Source of the DNA: a bacterium
GTDB taxonomy: Bacteria > Zhuqueibacterota > Zhuqueibacteria > Residuimicrobiales > Krinioviventaceae
Length of the DNA: 64,000 nucleotides
Assembly: GCA_963693055.1 (NCBI GenBank)
Contig: OY843751.1
Location: 4,672,001 to 4,736,000, forward strand
Direction: 5' to 3'
Part shown: piece after piece, positions 20,916 to 25,821 of the stretch
Layout of the letters: each line of letters begins with the position of its first letter
Numbering within the stretch: the stretch's first letter is position 1
Notes under the pieces: model-generated
Databases searched by the model: none
The model's input: only the letters and a program-made list of their open reading frames with translations
What the model was told of the DNA's origin: nothing
Program-made: the position numbers and the translations under genes

Positions 20916-21347
20916 CTAAGCTTCTGCTTCATAGTTGACCATCCAGGTAATTCCATATTTATCTACCAGTTGACCAAACATTGCTCCCCAAAATGTTTTG
21001 CCCCAGGGCATTACTACATTCGCACCCTCTGATAGATTATTAAACCAGGTCTCTCCTTTTTTCTCATCATCTATCTGGATTATTATTTGCACATTGTTGC
21101 CGTTTTCAAGCTTGCTGCCCGGCATTATGTCTGCGCCCATCAAAAGGGCTTTACCATCAATTTTTAACGCCGAGTGCATAATCTTGTTCTGATATTCTGG
21201 CGGCATCTCAGCCTCCACAGGTGTTCCTTTAACCGTCATCGTTTCCAGTTCAGCGTCCAATGCGTTTTTATAAAAAGTCATAGCATCCAAACAGTTTCCA
21301 TCAAATGACAGGTATGGATTTATCGAGATAAACATATTTTCCTCCAA
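20916..21347 (-). CDS. VOC family protein (PhnB/3-demethylubiquinone-9 3-methyltransferase-like)
   Basis: INPYLSFDGNC..A..FY, IMHS.L, L.EG..V.MP...TFWGA.FG.LVDKYGI.WMVN. Confidence 0.88.
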   Translation of the reverse strand: MEENMFISINPYLSFDGNCLDAMTFYKNALDAELETMTVKGTPVEAEMPPEYQNKIMHSALKIDGKALLMGADIMPGSKLENGNNVQIIIQIDDEKKGETWFNNLSEGANVVMPWGKTFWGAMFGQLVDKYGITWMVNYEAEA

Positions 21348-21456: not shown

Positions 21457-21484
21457 TTGTTTTTTAAAAAAAATGGTTTATATT
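21457..21484 (+). promoter_or_regulatory. Putative sigma70 promoter of ilvB unit 1
   Basis: TTGTTT-16 nt-TATATT, the same geometry as the promoter candidate upstream of unit 2. Confidence 0.4.
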
Positions 21485-21511: not shown

Positions 21512-21718
21512 ATGAACACACAAAATTCCACATATTCACTTTCTTTACCCTCAGCATTTGCTAACGGGCAGGAATCTGTATGCATGTGGAAAAATCTGAA
21601 TATTATATCCTCAATAGTCAACATACCAGGTATGCTTGTGCAACACCTGGTGGTCGTCGTCCCTGTTATTCTTCTTAACCTCTTGTCTGTGGGTGTGGTG
21701 GTTCGCGTCAGCGAATAA
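21512..21718 (+). CDS. Putative ILV attenuator leader peptide 1 (68 aa, Val-rich C-terminus)
   Basis: Ends MLVQHLVVVVPVILLNLLSVGVVVRVSE; aligns end to end with 23721-23930; sits directly upstream of ilvB. Confidence 0.7.
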   Translation: MNTQNSTYSLSLPSAFANGQESVCMWKNLNIISSIVNIPGMLVQHLVVVVPVILLNLLSVGVVVRVSE

Positions 21719-21817
21719 CAACCCGGTGCAAGAGGAAATCTCGTAATACATCCAAACATTTAACACAATGCTTTCAACCCATCCTCTGCACCGTAAGCAC
21801 AGGTATGACTAGTTTTG
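21679..21817 (+). promoter_or_regulatory. Putative transcription attenuator 1 (alternative 1:2, 2:3 and 3:4 pairings)
   Basis: cctcttg (21679-21685) and tcctctgcaccg (21782-21793) are both complementary to cggtgcaagagga (21724-21736). An imperfect 3:4 hairpin with a short U-run follows. Confidence 0.6.
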
Positions 21818-21872
21818 AATTATTCCAGGCATGTTCGAATTGGCATAATAACTCGTAAACGAAAGGATAGTT

Positions 21873-23594
21873 ATGACTGGTGCAGAAATGATTTTACATG
21901 CTTTAAAAAAAGAAGGCGTAAACGCGGTTTTCGGTTATCCGGGAGCCTCGGTAATCGACATTTTTGATTTACTGTATGAAGGAGAAATCCCGTTTTATCT
22001 GGTCAGACATGAACAGGGCGCGGTACACGCGGCAGACGGTTTTGCCCGCGCATCCGGCAAAGTGGGAGTTTGTCTGGCTACTTCCGGACCCGGTGCTACC
22101 AACCTGGTAACCGGTCTGGCTACAGCTCATATGGATTCTATCCCCATGGTTGCCATTACCGGGCAGGTAGCCACCCACCTGATAGGAAACGATGCGTTTC
22201 AGGAAGTCGACATGGTGGGTATCAGCAGACCCATTACCAAGCACAACTATTTGGTTAATTCAGTAAAAGACTTGCCCAAAATTTTAAAACAGGCTTTTCA
22301 TATTGCACGTAGCGGCAGGCCCGGTCCGGTTTTAATTGACATTCCCAAAGATCTTCAACGAATGGAATGTACCGTTCCCTATCCGGATAAAGTAGAAATC
22401 TCCAGCTACAAGCCAACCTTAAAAGGCCATACGCAGCAGCTTAAAAAAGCGATAACATTAATCGAACGCAGTAAAAAACCGGTCATTTACGCGGGCGGTG
22501 GCGTTATTGCCAGCGAAGCAAGCAGCGAACTGCGGACCTTTGCTGAAAAGATCAATGCTCCTGTTACAACAACCTTGATGGGATTAGGGATTTACGATGA
22601 AACCGCACCCAACGCACTAAAAATGCTGGGTATGCACGGTACCGAATATGCCAATTACTCTATTCAGGCATGCGATTTGTTAATTGCAGTTGGTGCTCGG
22701 TTTGATGACAGGGTAACCGGAAAAGTTGATAAATTTGCACCCAATGCCAAAATCATTCATATTGATATCGATCCCACAACCATCCGTAAAAACGTTCAGG
22801 TAAATATACCTATTGTTGGAGATGTAAAACATGTTCTGGCAGATCTGGTAGAAATGATTGAGCAACAAGATAAAGCAGAATGGATTTCACAGGTGCGGGA
22901 ATGGAAAGAAAAGCATCCCCTGACATTTAAAAACGATGGTTTTATTCAACCCCAATTTGTGATCGAAAAAATCGCAGAAATGACAGACCATAAAGCAATT
23001 ATTACTACCGAAGTGGGGCAGAACCAGATGTGGAGTGCACAGTTTTTCAATTTCAAACATCCGCGAACCTTTTTATCATCCGGCGGCCTGGGAACCATGG
23101 GCTATGGATTCCCCGCAGCTATTGGTGCCCAAATTGCCCACCCGGATAAAGTTGTGATTGATATTGCAGGCGACGGCAGCATTCAAATGAACATACAGGA
23201 ACTGGCAACAGCTGTTTTGTACCAAATACCCGTCAAGATTGTAATCCTTAACAATCGTTCCTTGGGCATGGTAAGACAATGGCAGGCCATATTCTATGAC
23301 AAACGATTTGCTTCAACCTGTATGCGCCGAAATGCCCAATGTCCACCGCAGTGTGAACAAACTGAAGAATTTTGCCCTACCGAATATGTGCCCAATTTCG
23401 TCAAACTGGCAAAAGCCTATGGTGCAACCGGTTTTTACGCGGACAAAGTTGAGGATGTAGTACCCACTTTGGGAAAAATGTTGAATACGCCGGGTCCTGT
23501 TGTTGTTGAATTCAAGATAGAAGCAGAAGAAAATGTTTACCCCATGGTGCCGGCTGGCGCACCTATTCATGAAATGATAAGAGGCATGGCATAA
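21873..23594 (+). CDS. ilvB: Acetolactate synthase large subunit, copy 1
   Basis: FGYPG, RHEQGAVHAADG, TSGPGATN, DAFQE, LGMHG, RFDDRVTG, ThDP motif GDGSIQMN...NN, GMVRQWQ. Confidence 0.97.
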   Translation: MTGAEMILHALKKEGVNAVFGYPGASVIDIFDLLYEGEIPFYLVRHEQGAVHAADGFARASGKVGVCLATSGPGATNLVTGLATAHMDSIPMVAITGQVATHLIGNDAFQEVDMVGISRPITKHNYLVNSVKDLPKILKQAFHIARSGRPGPVLIDIPKDLQRMECTVPYPDKVEISSYKPTLKGHTQQLKKAITLIERSKKPVIYAGGGVIASEASSELRTFAEKINAPVTTTLMGLGIYDETAPNALKMLGMHGTEYANYSIQACDLLIAVGARFDDRVTGKVDKFAPNAKIIHIDIDPTTIRKNVQVNIPIVGDVKHVLADLVEMIEQQDKAEWISQVREWKEKHPLTFKNDGFIQPQFVIEKIAEMTDHKAIITTEVGQNQMWSAQFFNFKHPRTFLSSGGLGTMGYGFPAAIGAQIAHPDKVVIDIAGDGSIQMNIQELATAVLYQIPVKIVILNNRSLGMVRQWQAIFYDKRFASTCMRRNAQCPPQCEQTEEFCPTEYVPNFVKLAKAYGATGFYADKVEDVVPTLGKMLNTPGPVVVEFKIEAEENVYPMVPAGAPIHEMIRGMA

Positions 23595-23658
23595 AAATAA
23601 AATATTTAAAATGATTGACGTTATTTATTTAAAAAACAAGACATAAAAATTTTTTTTA

Positions 23659-23686
23659 TTGACTTTATCAAATAATTAGTTATATT
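23659..23686 (+). promoter_or_regulatory. Putative sigma70 promoter of ilvB unit 2
   Basis: TTGACT-16 nt-TATATT in an AT-rich intergenic region. Confidence 0.5.
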
Positions 23687-23720
23687 TATTAATTCAATAG
23701 TATAATATTTAGAAAAATTC

Positions 23721-23930
23721 ATGAGCACACATACGGCCACAAAATCATATCCTTTTTCAAACCCGTTAGCAATAGCTTACGGTAGGGGAGCTGTGTGCGT
23801 ACGTAATACGAATCTGAATATTCTACCATCCTTGTTAGTAAACTTACCGGGTGTGATTGTGCGACGCCTGGTGGTCGTGCCCATCATTATTCTAAACCTC
23901 TTGCTAGTGCTAATTCGCCTAAGCGAATAA
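23721..23930 (+). CDS. Putative ILV attenuator leader peptide 2 (69 aa, Ile/Leu/Val-rich C-terminus)
   Basis: Ends VIVRRLVVVPIIILNLLLVLIRLSE with four CTA Leu codons; paralogous to leader 1. Confidence 0.72.
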   Translation: MSTHTATKSYPFSNPLAIAYGRGAVCVRNTNLNILPSLLVNLPGVIVRRLVVVPIIILNLLLVLIRLSE

Positions 23931-24060
23931 AATACATGGTGCAAGAGGAAGCCAAAAAAATTTAATACACTACACAAAGCCTAAACGACCCGGAAATCGG
24001 GAATATCCTCTGCACCATGAGACAAGGTGTTTTTTAAAATTTGATGAGGTATTTTTTTTT
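23897..24060 (+). promoter_or_regulatory. Putative transcription attenuator 2
   Basis: cctcttgc (23897-23904) and tcctctgcaccatg (24006-24019) are both complementary to catggtgcaagagga (23935-23949). Downstream are a gcacc/ggtgt stem with a U-tract and a second T9 run at 24052-24060. Confidence 0.62.
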
Positions 24061-24099: not shown

Positions 24100-25821
24100 A
24101 TGACTGGTGCAGAAATGATCGTTCACGCTTTAAAACAAGAGGGTGTACGTGCGTTATTCGGTTACCCGGGTGGTTCGGTAATCGATATCTTTGATGTATT
24201 GTACAATTCAGATCTTCCATTTTATCTTGTGCGGCATGAACAAGGTGCAGTCCACGCTGCAGACGGTTTTGCACGTGCATCCGGTGAAGTGGGTGTCTGC
24301 CTTGCAACTTCAGGACCGGGGGCCACAAACCTGGTGACAGGTTTAGCTACAGCTCATATGGACTCTATTCCGATGGTGGCAATAACAGGACAAGTTCATA
24401 CACATCTGATTGGTAACGATGCATTTCAAGAAGTAGACATTGTTGGCATCAGCAGACCCATTACAAAGCACAATTATCTGGTGAGTTCGGTTGATGAATT
24501 GCCTAAAATTTTGAAACAAGCATTTTATCTGGCCCGCACCGGCAGACCTGGTCCGGTATTGGTGGATATCCCCAAAGATATTCAACAAACCGAGTGCAAA
24601 GTCCCCTATCCGGATAAAGTAGAAATTCCAAGCTACAAGCCAACAATGAAGGGTCATTTGCAGCAGCTTAAAAAAGTTGCCAAAGCAATTGAACAGAGTA
24701 AACAACCCGTCATTTATGCAGGTGGTGGAGTTATAGCAAGCGAAGCAAGTAATGAACTCCGCACTTTTGCTAAAAAGATCAATGCTCCTGTAACTACAAC
24801 CCTTATGGGACTTGGAATTTATGACGAAACTGATGATGACGCATTAAAAATGCTGGGCATGCACGGTACGGAATATGCCAATTACTCTATTCAGGCATGC
24901 GATCTGTTAATTGCGGTTGGTGCTCGCTTTGATGACAGAGTTACCGGCAAAGTCGATAAATTCGCAGCCAATGCTACAATTATTCATATCGATATCGACC
25001 CTACAACTATTCGCAAAAACGTTCAGGTCAACATTCCCATTGTTGGTGATATTAAACATGTTCTTACTGATCTGAACGAGCTCATTGAACAGCAGGATAA
25101 AAAAGAATGGATGTCTCAGGTTCATGAATGGAAAGAAAAACATCCACTGGTTTACAAGAACGATGGACATATTCAGCCACAATATATCATTGAAAAACTG
25201 GCTGAAATGACTGATCACAATGCGGTTATCTCTACCGAAGTGGGTCAAAACCAGATGTGGGCGGCACAGTTTTATAATTATAAACATCCACGTACCTTTT
25301 TATCATCTGGTGGTTTGGGAACCATGGGTTACGGATTTCCCGCAGCCATTGGCGCCCAAGTTGCCCAGCCGGACAAGGTTGTTATTGACATTGCGGGTGA
25401 TGGCAGCATCCAGATGAACATACAGGAACTGGCTACCGCAGTATTGTATCAGATCCCCGTCAAGATTGTTATTCTCAATAATCGCTCACTCGGTATGGTG
25501 AGACAATGGCAGGGTATATTTTATGACAGACGCTTTTCATCTACATGCTTGCGGCGCAATGCCATGTGCCCGCCGCAATGTAAACAAACTGAGGAGTTCT
25601 GCCCGAACGAATACGTCCCAAATTTCGTCAAACTGGCAGAAGCCTATGGTGCAGCCGGACTTTATGCGGACAAAGTTGAGGATGTAGTACCCACTTTGAA
25701 AAAAATGCTGAATACTCCGGGCCCGGTTGTTGTTGAATTCAAGATAGAAGCTGAAGAAAATGTTTACCCCATGGTGCCGGCTGGTGCCCCAATCCATGAA
25801 ATGATAAGAGGAATGGCATAA
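24100..25821 (+). CDS. ilvB: Acetolactate synthase large subunit, copy 2
   Basis: Same motifs and same length (573 aa) as copy 1; stop overlaps the ilvN start. Confidence 0.97.
   Translation: MTGAEMIVHALKQEGVRALFGYPGGSVIDIFDVLYNSDLPFYLVRHEQGAVHAADGFARASGEVGVCLATSGPGATNLVTGLATAHMDSIPMVAITGQVHTHLIGNDAFQEVDIVGISRPITKHNYLVSSVDELPKILKQAFYLARTGRPGPVLVDIPKDIQQTECKVPYPDKVEIPSYKPTMKGHLQQLKKVAKAIEQSKQPVIYAGGGVIASEASNELRTFAKKINAPVTTTLMGLGIYDETDDDALKMLGMHGTEYANYSIQACDLLIAVGARFDDRVTGKVDKFAANATIIHIDIDPTTIRKNVQVNIPIVGDIKHVLTDLNELIEQQDKKEWMSQVHEWKEKHPLVYKNDGHIQPQYIIEKLAEMTDHNAVISTEVGQNQMWAAQFYNYKHPRTFLSSGGLGTMGYGFPAAIGAQVAQPDKVVIDIAGDGSIQMNIQELATAVLYQIPVKIVILNNRSLGMVRQWQGIFYDRRFSSTCLRRNAMCPPQCKQTEEFCPNEYVPNFVKLAEAYGAAGLYADKVEDVVPTLKKMLNTPGPVVVEFKIEAEENVYPMVPAGAPIHEMIRGMA

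What the first reader, a model, noticed from the sequence alone, without database searches (positions are those of the whole stretch)
21512..24060. Unusually long (68/69 aa) Ile/Leu/Val leader peptides with a covarying attenuator upstream of both ilvB copies
Seen: each ilvB is preceded by a paralogous ORF whose last ~25 codons are mostly Val/Ile/Leu. A box 5-6 nt past the stop (GGTGCAAGAGGA) can pair either with CCTCTTG inside the control codons or with downstream TCCTCTGCACC. The outer pairs differ between copies in a compensatory way (CGGTGCA/TGCACCG vs CATGGTGCA/TGCACCATG), while the intervening loop is unrelated. Established: this 1:2/2:3/3:4 geometry is that of ribosome-mediated attenuation (E. 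coli ilvL, ivbL, leuL), whose leaders are only about 30 aa. Inference: a stalled ribosome masks region 1 and allows the 2:3 antiterminator, whereas a ribosome at the stop masks region 2. I know of no description of such an attenuator in this lineage. The extra ~40 conserved N-terminal residues (VC...NLNI..S.VN.PG) are unexplained and may have a nascent-chain or trans function.
Basis: partly seen in the sequence, partly recalled or inferred. Interest (0 to 1): 0.75.

Follow-up and report, generated by a model that had tools for sequence, protein, structure and literature searches.

The report
Long-leader ilv switch lacking canonical terminator
Both ilvB genes of this uncultured bacterium (likely phylum KSB1) are preceded by a long Ile/Leu/Val-rich mini-gene and conserved competing RNA helices that likely switch the genes on when those amino acids run short; unlike textbook attenuators it has no strong terminator hairpin and is predicted to stop transcription with help from the Rho protein.

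Summary
Observation confirmed: 68- and 69-codon Ile/Leu/Val leaders and the 1:2 versus 2:3 pairings exist. The element is in 39 of 39 genomes of the order with a readable upstream region. A second sequence family with the same layout precedes ilvD in 38 other genera of the phylum (likely KSB1). Long leaders are real (42-69 aa; frame open for at least 40 codons in 42 of 42), but the N-terminal motif is not conserved, so a nascent-chain or trans role is unsupported. The classical 3:4 terminator test fails: median -5.3 kcal/mol, against -11.6 to -21.4 for His/Trp/Lys/Asp attenuators of the same lineage. Instead the 2:3 helix closes a 30-60-nt unstructured loop with C/G about 5 (controls 0.7-1.0). 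A purine-rich box 4 can pair weakly with box 1 or box 3 just before a U-rich stretch. Best reading: stalling on box 1 gives read-through; a freed box 1 gives weak, likely Rho-assisted termination (about 0.5). Rivals: long-range intrinsic terminator, or Shine-Dalgarno masking (supported only in the ilvD family). No RNA data. This scan noted a similar leader in another KSB1 genome. New variant of a known kind.

The parts
21457..21484 (+). Putative sigma-70 promoter of copy 1 (-35 TTGTTT, -10 TATATT); it overlaps the upstream ATG at 21473, so the 81-aa reading is unlikely
   Evidence: homolog consensus TTGACA/TATATT, promoter-like match in 35 of 42
21512..21718 (+). Leader ORF 1, 68 aa, Val-heavy end (V11 L6 I1 in the last 30 codons)
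21679..21686 (+). Box 1 (Leu-Leu codons CTC TTG); pairs with box 2 or box 4
21702..21715 (+). Small hairpin just before the stop codon, shared by both paralogs; role unknown
21724..21736 (+). Box 2; pairs with box 1 or box 3
21737..21781 (+). 45-nt unstructured C/A-rich, G-poor loop, candidate Rho loading site
   Evidence: C-G skew in the top 2-3% of control windows
21782..21793 (+). Box 3; 2:3 duplex -21.2 kcal/mol
21797..21816 (+). Box 4 and a short U run; weak 3:4 hairpin (-6.3) or 1:4 pairing
21873..23594 (+). ilvB copy 1, acetolactate synthase large subunit
   Evidence: TIGR00118 above cut-off
23659..23686 (+). Putative sigma-70 promoter of copy 2 (TTGACT / TATATT)
23721..23930 (+). Leader ORF 2, 69 aa (L8 V7 I5 in the last 30 codons)
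23897..23904 (+). Box 1 of copy 2
23935..23949 (+). Box 2 of copy 2
23950..24005 (+). 56-nt A/C-rich loop of copy 2, with one small hairpin at its 3' end
   Evidence: skew in the top 4% by one control, top 12% by another
24006..24019 (+). Box 3 of copy 2; 2:3 duplex -25.8 kcal/mol
24020..24060 (+). Box 4 (pairs with box 1 in the minimum-energy fold) followed by U6, then GAGG followed by U9: candidate release points
24100..25821 (+). ilvB copy 2, followed by ilvN-ilvC-leuA-leuB-cimA-argJ (to 32822)

Best explanation
This is likely an Ile/Leu/Val-tRNA-sensing leader-peptide attenuator whose off state is predicted to end transcription with help from Rho rather than at a strong hairpin. Shown: a long leader ends in I/L/V codons; box 1 (in the Leu-Leu codons) and box 3 are twin elements that both match box 2; the 2:3 helix closes a 30-60-nt unstructured C/A-rich loop; a purine-rich box 4 and an often U-rich stretch follow. 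Inferred: in shortage, ribosomes stall or queue over box 1, box 2 captures box 3, the loop is closed, box 4 has no partner, and RNA polymerase reads through. In plenty, the ribosome finishes and leaves before box 3 is made (the loop acting as a timer), and box 1 captures box 2. The loop plus box 3 then become a 60-80-nt open C-rich stretch where Rho would load, with release near the U-rich stretch, helped by a weak 3:4 or 1:4 helix. The long N-terminal part would act as a spacer or queue, not as a signal peptide (speculative).
For: Element in 39 of 39 readable genomes of the order. 2:3 duplex -14.6 to -27.4 kcal/mol in 41 of 42, covarying. 1:2 core paired at all 8 positions in 21 of 21 genus representatives, and covarying in the ilvD family (-19.5 cognate vs -13.4; 33 of 38 genera). 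The last 25 codons are 62% I/L/V but only 4% F/A/M/W together. CTA/CTC, rare in this genome, are enriched; CUA is the sensitive leu control codon (PMC1183508, passages). No canonical terminator: median -5.25 (ilvB type) and -1.35 (ilvD type), against -15.7 to -21.4 for six controls in this genome, -11.6 to -20.4 for 19 his leaders of the order, and -16.9 to -20.2 for E. coli ilvL/ivbL/leuL. Loop C/G 4.9 and 4.6 against 0.7-1.0 in four controls, median fold energy 0; loop more skewed than its own downstream spacer in 38 of 38. Rho sites are C>G-biased, weakly structured, A/C-preferring and optimally 60-90 nt (PMC12360218, section 4). rho found in 43 of 43 order genomes and 162 of 167 in the phylum. 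U runs enriched after box 4 (T4 in 23 of 41 vs 13.1 +/- 2.6 shuffled). The 8 nt before the U-rich stretch are paired in 31 of 41 with box 1 free and 7 of 41 with it masked, and only at that position.
Against: No transcript or ribosome data. An A/C-rich, G-poor loop is also what any unstructured linker looks like: E. coli ivbL and ilvL spacers reach skews of 0.23 and 0.20, as does tnaC (0.20), against 0.275 here, and YC dinucleotides are not above composition. KSB1 rho upstream regions gave no clear positive control (median 0.20; this genome 0.125). On the full naked transcript 2:3 wins in 23 of 41, so the off state must be kinetic. The covarying 1:4 pairing would favour 2:3 once the ribosome leaves. 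I/L/V enrichment starts 25-30 codons before box 1, where a stall would not cover it. Shuffling box 4 keeps most of the pairing switch (28.5 vs 30 of 41). One homolog (L017) lacks a clear box 3.
Confidence: 0.5

Rival explanations
1. Rho-independent but rewired terminator: once the ribosome leaves box 1, box 3 takes box 2 and box 1 pairs long-range with box 4 right before the U stretch (or a weak 3:4 forms). NusA/NusG complete termination, and the loop is only a linker and timer.
For: 1:4 cognate -10.1 vs -8.5 kcal/mol, 14 of 21 groups. 1:4 of at least 5 bp in a minimum-energy fold in 31 of 41, followed by at least 5 T in 8 in 17 of 41 (11 of 21 groups). Copy 2 folds this way. NusG completes suboptimal hairpins in B. 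subtilis (PMC8060035, abstract).
Against: 24 of 41 lack a U-rich stretch after a 1:4 helix, and 10 of 41 have no 1:4. Freeing box 1 gains only a median 7 kcal/mol, while this lineage builds -12 to -21 terminators elsewhere. Box-4 order matters little. It gives no reason for the strongly selected 1:2 helix beyond a pause.
Confidence: 0.22
2. Translational attenuation: when box 2 is held by box 1, free box 3 pairs with the Shine-Dalgarno of the first gene and blocks initiation; any Rho effect is secondary polarity.
For: In the ilvD family box 3 covaries with its own SD (-10.3 vs -8.5; 29 of 38 genera), beats hisG SDs in 42 of 50, and the box 1:SD and box 3:coding controls are flat. SD access falls in 22 of 50 and rises in none when box 2 is locked. 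Box 3 of the ilvB type is also CCUCU-like.
Against: In the ilvB type, which is the window's, there is no signal: 10 of 21 groups, 21 of 41 against hisG SDs, and only -5.4 and -5.5 kcal/mol in the two window copies. SD access falls in 14 and rises in 13 of 41. Box 3 lies 56-241 nt from the start.
Confidence: 0.18
3. The switch controls mRNA decay: the open loop or the closed 1:4 ring sets access for an RNase E/G/Y-type nuclease, as described for Salmonella speF.
For: speF leader structure sets RNase G sensitivity (PMC6386406, abstract). The loop is long, single-stranded and A-rich.
Against: Nothing tested here points to a cleavage site; the U-run enrichment and C bias fit termination better.
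Confidence: 0.07
4. The ORF encodes a small membrane or trans-acting protein, and the RNA pairings are incidental.
For: Hydrophobic C-terminus; mild purifying selection (dN/dS 0.60 N-part, 0.46 C-part).
Against: Only 8 of 42 have an uncharged hydrophobic 19-mer; Arg 9% and Pro 5% interrupt it, and F/A/M/W are nearly absent. Synonymous change is suppressed in the C-part (pS 0.08 vs 0.24). No Pfam or NCBIfam match. N-termini do not align.
Confidence: 0.03

Closest known systems
E. coli ilvL (ilvGMEDA), ivbL (ilvBN) and leuL classical attenuators
   Same: I/L/V-rich leader before AHAS/leu genes; competing 1:2 and 2:3 helices; stalling predicted to give read-through (their mechanism is recalled; sequences fetched).
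   Different: Their leaders are 32, 32 and 28 aa with -16.9 to -20.2 kcal/mol terminators. Here 42-69 aa, no such terminator, a 30-60-nt loop and a box 4 that matches box 1.
Salmonella mgtL-mgtA, corL-corA, mgtM-mgtC uORF-controlled Rho attenuators
   Same: Stalling in the uORF favours a Rho-resistant fold; efficient translation favours a Rho-prone one (PMC12360218, section 7 and Table 2 passage).
   Different: They sense Mg2+ and control transporters. Here the candidate Rho site is closed into a loop rather than base-paired, and Rho action is untested. In that review 'branched' occurs 0 times and 'ilv' only in one reference title.
tnaC and speFL leaders
   Same: uORF followed by a C-rich spacer without a strong terminator (tnaC best hairpin -7.0, skew 0.20); speF combines Rho, SD masking and decay (PMC6386406, abstract).
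   Different: They are arrest peptides induced by the metabolite, with a conserved peptide sequence. Here the peptide is not conserved and the logic is shortage-induced.
Actinobacterial ilvB attenuators (M. tuberculosis ilvB1, Corynebacterium ilvB-II) and the LEU element / cys leaders
   Same: I/L/V uORF before ilvB. The LEU element pairs Leu codons with the SD; terminator-less cys leaders were proposed, weakly, to use Rho (PMC1262725, parts 1-2 of 3).
   Different: The ilvB ones have short uORFs and intrinsic terminators (PMC13236596 and PMC11109978, passages). No Rfam match here.

Membership tests
Classical leader-peptide transcription attenuator (ilvL/ivbL/leuL type) | Upstream ORF enriched in codons of the pathway's amino acids, before the cognate operon | tested here: met
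   18 of 27 I/L/V in both copies; 62% across 42 homologs; operon identity
Classical leader-peptide transcription attenuator (ilvL/ivbL/leuL type) | Mutually exclusive 1:2 and 2:3 helices, with region 1 under a stalled ribosome | tested here: met
Classical leader-peptide transcription attenuator (ilvL/ivbL/leuL type) | 3:4 intrinsic terminator: stable hairpin followed by a U tract | tested here: not met
   median -5.25, 2 of 42 at -10 or better; controls -11.6 to -21.4; no 3:4 covariation in the ilvB type
Classical leader-peptide transcription attenuator (ilvL/ivbL/leuL type) | Short leader (about 15-35 aa) | tested here: not met
   42-69 aa; 35 of 42 have no ATG for a 15-35-aa leader; E. coli 28-32 aa and order his leaders 15-25 aa
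Classical leader-peptide transcription attenuator (ilvL/ivbL/leuL type) | Leader translated; amino-acid-dependent read-through | not testable with these tools
   needs Ribo-seq, Term-seq or reporters
uORF-controlled Rho-dependent attenuator (mgtL/corL/tnaC type) | C>G-biased, weakly structured stretch of Rho-site size in the leader | tested here: met
   C/G 4.6-4.9, fold energy 0, box 2 to box 3 core distance 44-73 nt; criteria from PMC12360218
uORF-controlled Rho-dependent attenuator (mgtL/corL/tnaC type) | The stretch is distinguishable from a plain unstructured linker | tested here: inconclusive
   E. coli ivbL/ilvL spacers also skewed 0.20-0.23; YC not enriched; rho-leader control unclear
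uORF-controlled Rho-dependent attenuator (mgtL/corL/tnaC type) | Rho present in the organism | tested here: met
uORF-controlled Rho-dependent attenuator (mgtL/corL/tnaC type) | Termination depends on Rho (bicyclomycin-sensitive) | not testable with these tools
   needs experiment
Translational (SD-masking) leader-peptide attenuator | Freed region pairs specifically with the SD of the first gene | tested here: not met
   ilvB type (the window): 10 of 21 groups, p 0.36; met in the related ilvD family (29 of 38)
Nascent-chain arrest peptide (TnaC/SpeFL type) | Peptide sequence conserved upstream of the stall site | tested here: not met
   N-termini unalignable across the order; dN/dS 0.60
Any Rfam family | Match above gathering score | tested here: not met
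   window, best E 0.46, unrelated families; 0 matches in 20 loci

The most novel reading that the evidence does not exclude
KSB1 bacteria control branched-chain amino-acid synthesis with a ribosome-thrown clasp: the 2:3 helix does not undo a terminator hairpin but closes a Rho loading site into a loop. Two distinct sequence families (before ilvB and before ilvD) share this design, with a 40-75-codon leader serving as a ribosome queue that keeps box 1 covered. It would be a biosynthetic, charged-tRNA-sensing attenuator whose main output is Rho, in genomes whose His, Trp and Lys attenuators are textbook.
Probability: 0.35. Interest if true: 0.75.

Novelty: new variant of a known kind. Interest (0 to 1): 0.58.

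Why it matters
Leader peptides without terminators have been predicted before amino-acid operons since at least 2005 (PMC1262725), with the output left open. This family gives 92 natural variants with covarying helices, plus a built-in control (canonical his/trp attenuators in the same genomes), so the question is directly testable in a laboratory E. coli reporter or in vitro. If Rho is the output, it adds a way of gating Rho (looping the site instead of pairing or covering it) and a compact branched-chain amino-acid sensor part. It also warns that scans requiring a short leader plus a terminator miss a phylum-wide regulon.

Tried and rejected
Rfam: nothing meaningful. Pfam/NCBIfam on the leaders: none. 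tblastn/blastn for further copies in this genome: only the two; the ilvD leader came from an unbiased scan. The terminator scan found only a hairpin inside leader 2. Whole-region folding z-scores are weak (-0.59 and -2.66), as expected for a switch. 81-aa version of leader 1: rejected, its ATG lies in the promoter spacer. Short-leader reading from internal starts: rejected as the general case; the internal ATG at codon 41 of leader 1 is GTG in the congeneric genome, although SD strength does not separate first from internal starts (-3.3 vs -2.9). First box 3:SD test had mis-set starts for 7 loci and was redone, again negative for the ilvB type. rho upstream regions as a positive control: inconclusive. 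Sequencing runs: no RNA holder listed. Metagenome pattern scan: 13 stretches, 4 before ilvB plus 1 cut off before the gene, no new gene context. The 48 non-ilvB pattern hits were compared only with six window proteins and are treated as chance. The MAFFT alignment misaligns the variable parts, so anchored counts were used and no covariance model was built. No structure prediction or homolog search of the peptides was run, since they are not conserved.
Full report
1. Observation. The window holds two tandem ilvB genes (21873-23594 and 24100-25821; 87% identical), the second followed by ilvN-ilvC-leuA-leuB-cimA-argJ. No other copy exists in the 6.5-Mb genome.

2. Lineage and spread. A pattern scan of 185,579 genomes gave 66 hits. 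Eighteen lie before an ilvB 65-87% identical to the window's, and all 18 have the leader stop 6-12 nt before box 2. Five of the 18 are titled candidate division KSB1; the rest carry 'Cytophagia' (9), 'Saprospiraceae' (1) or no label (3), so KSB1 is an inference. Among the 43 genomes of the window's order, 39 have a readable region before this ilvB clade and all 39 carry the element: 30 of 31 regions (the miss is the second gene of a leaderless tandem whose first gene has it) and 11 of 11. The working set is 42 elements in 21-22 genus-level groups; three loci that duplicate others were dropped, and L017, which lacks a clear box 3, was left out of the pairing tests (n = 41, 21 groups). The motif was absent from 29 ilvB upstream regions outside the order and from this genome's third ilvB, most of which follow ilvD directly. 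I therefore read 90 ilvD upstream regions: 3 too short, 19 without a leader, 68 with an I/L/V leader. Fifty of these 68 (38 genera, all outside the order) have the same layout in a different sequence: leader of 32-75 aa, box 2 just after the stop, a 2:3 duplex of -20 to -37 kcal/mol around a G-poor loop. The other 18, 17 of them in the window's order, lack the big helix and were not analysed further.

3. The long leader. The frame is open for at least 40 codons before box 1 in 42 of 42 elements, against 5 and 9 in the other frames. Leaders run 42-69 aa (37 ATG starts). A TTGACA/TATATT-type promoter lies within 110 nt of the start in 35 of 42, 27-46 nt before it in 34, and 35 of 42 have no ATG giving a 15-35-aa leader. 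His leaders of the same order are 15-25 aa, and E. coli ilvL, ivbL and leuL 32, 32 and 28 aa. Length is conserved; sequence is not. N-termini do not align beyond a loose 'NG...C' in part of the family, and N-part dN/dS over 7 within-genus pairs is 0.60, by a method that tends to understate it. The last 25 codons are 62% I/L/V and 4% F/A/M/W, with CTA, CTC, GTC and ATT enriched over this genome's usage and synonymous change suppressed. That is a sensor signature, not a membrane helix.

4. Helices. Cognate against non-cognate duplex energies by genus: 2:3 -20.5 vs -16.1 (19 of 21); 1:4 -10.1 vs -8.5 (14 of 21); 1:2 invariant, hence no signal; 3:4 -7.0 vs -7.5 (10 of 21). Box 3 was located by its best duplex with box 2, which favours the first figure; the ungapped count anchored on the invariant G:C is less exposed (70 of 105 vs 50.8 +/- 3.7). 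The 8-bp 1:2 core is paired at every position in 21 of 21 representatives, with one double change (the detecting pattern restricts variation). In the ilvD family 1:2 covaries strongly (33 of 38). Genera are related, so permutation p values overstate. With a ribosome-sized mask over box 1, 2:3 forms in 39 of 41; the early transcript forms 1:2 in 39 of 41; a mask at the stop leaves 2:3 in 30 of 41; the full naked RNA splits 23 (2:3) to 16 (1:2).

5. No canonical terminator. The best hairpin before a U-rich 8-mer has a median of -5.25 kcal/mol (2 of 42 at -10 or better; window copies -6.3 and -7.0) and -1.35 in the ilvD family (4 of 50). An unbiased scan of this genome found His, two Trp, Lys/Thr/Met and two Asp leaders with terminators of -15.7 to -21.4. 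Nineteen of 27 hisG regions of the order have a His leader with -11.6 to -20.4, and the E. coli controls score -16.9 to -20.2. This lineage builds ordinary terminators, but not here.

6. What stands in its place. (a) The loop: C/G 4.9 (ilvB type) and 4.6 (ilvD type) against 0.7-1.0 for downstream spacers, his spacers and 1,562 intergenic windows; median fold energy 0. This fits the description of Rho sites (C>G bias, little structure, A and C preferred, 60-90 nt optimal; PMC12360218), and rho is in 43 of 43 order genomes. Against: E. coli ivbL and ilvL spacers are nearly as skewed, YC is not enriched, and rho's own upstream regions are ambiguous. (b) Box 4 and U runs: T frequency rises from 0.10 to 0.43-0.50 at 15-24 nt after the box 3 anchor; T4 runs occur in 23 of 41 (shuffled 13.1 +/- 2.6) and T5 runs in 11 of 50 ilvD elements (3.0 +/- 1.4). 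The 8 nt before the U-rich stretch are paired in 31 of 41 with box 1 free, 21 with box 2 locked and 7 with box 1 masked. The contrast vanishes 12-30 nt downstream but largely survives shuffling of box 4, so it is positional and compositional. Copy 1 folds as 1:2 plus a weak 3:4, copy 2 as 2:3 plus 1:4. (c) SD masking: clear in the ilvD family (29 of 38 genera; 42 of 50 against hisG SDs; flat controls), absent in the ilvB type (10 of 21; -5.4 and -5.5 in the window).

7. Mechanism. Shown: the anatomy, conservation and computed folds above. Inferred: read-through needs both twins occupied, box 1 by a stalled ribosome and box 3 by box 2. When the ribosome finishes, one twin is free; the loop opens (1:2 route) and box 4 finds a weak partner before the U stretch. 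These helices look too weak and the U runs too patchy to act alone, so a factor is likely needed, and the loop points to Rho (0.5). A NusA/NusG-helped long-range terminator (0.22), SD masking (0.18; higher for the ilvD family), decay control (0.07) and a functional peptide (0.03) are the rivals. That the element senses I/L/V through the ribosome at all is much safer, about 0.9. Unexplained: why I/L/V enrichment begins 25-30 codons before box 1; ribosome queuing on a long ORF is my speculation.

8. Known systems and novelty. It works like ilvL/ivbL/leuL in sensing and, as predicted, like mgtL/corL in output. It fails two defining tests of the classical family (terminator, short leader). Rfam has no match. 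Nine searches of the held library listed no description; KSB1 occurred 0 times in the papers listed. Seen: PMC1262725 parts 1-2 of 3; PMC4833913 part 1 of 3 (background only); PMC12360218 passages, section 4 part 1 and section 7; PMC13236596, PMC11109978 and PMC1183508 passages; PMC6386406 and PMC8060035 abstracts. No supplements were read; motif lists in those of PMC11109978 or PMC4833913 could bear on novelty. A 2010 comparative survey of attenuation by Lopatovskaya, Seliverstov and Lyubetsky (recalled, not seen) may cover terminator-less types in other phyla. Earlier notes of this scan report a long branched-chain leader with unusual wiring in another KSB1 genome and long or terminator-less ilvB leaders in other lineages; I saw only their summaries, and they are not independent support. 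Verdict: real, phylum-wide in layout, a new variant of a known kind; interest 0.58.

Noticed in passing
G000:C1:787225-786463 (minus strand; outside the window): Two tandem Asp-rich leader ORFs (37 and 54 aa), each with its own strong intrinsic terminator (-21.4, -20.1), precede a 103-aa protein with no Pfam match above cut-off. A double aspartate-sensing attenuator on an unknown gene would be unusual.
   Followed up: partly
G000:C1:458025-458293 (+), locus L137: 54-aa I/L/V leader before ilvD and the third ilvB. It has an 8-bp helix around a 27-nt U-rich loop and a second nearby partner, and no canonical terminator. Seventeen ilvD leaders of the order seem to share this third layout.
   Followed up: partly
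G000:C1:2919258-2919211 (-), 4335485-4335556 (+), 1871583-1871512 (-), 3747454-3747392 (-): Classical His, Trp (two, before trpB2- and trpE-like genes) and Lys/Thr/Met (before an asd-like gene) leader attenuators with strong terminators; gene names are from my recognition of the sequences, except hisG.
   Followed up: partly
window 21512-21718 versus 23721-23930: After the duplication, leader 1 became Val-heavy (V11 L6 I1) while leader 2 is balanced (L8 V7 I5), which may split sensing between the two ilvB copies. Both enzymes keep the Trp of the MVRQW motif that, from recall, favours 2-ketobutyrate.
   Followed up: no
window 23594-23721: No terminator-like site was found between ilvB copy 1 and leader 2, so transcripts from promoter 1 may also have to pass switch 2.
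   Followed up: no
L209, L217, L218, L223 (with L024, L028, L029, L027): In several genomes of family f2, ilvD and ilvB are divergent and share one intergenic region (positions).
   Followed up: no
L117 (G055:C40): An ilvD-type 53-aa leader sits directly before ilvB in this genome, so the second family can move with the operon's first gene.
   Followed up: no
genome table: Many genomes of the phylum show two rho matches at E of 1e-60 or better; a second Rho-like gene was not examined.
   Followed up: no
window 20916-21347 (-): Divergent VOC/YjdN-like gene (below NCBIfam cut-off) shares the AT-rich gap with promoter 1.
   Followed up: no
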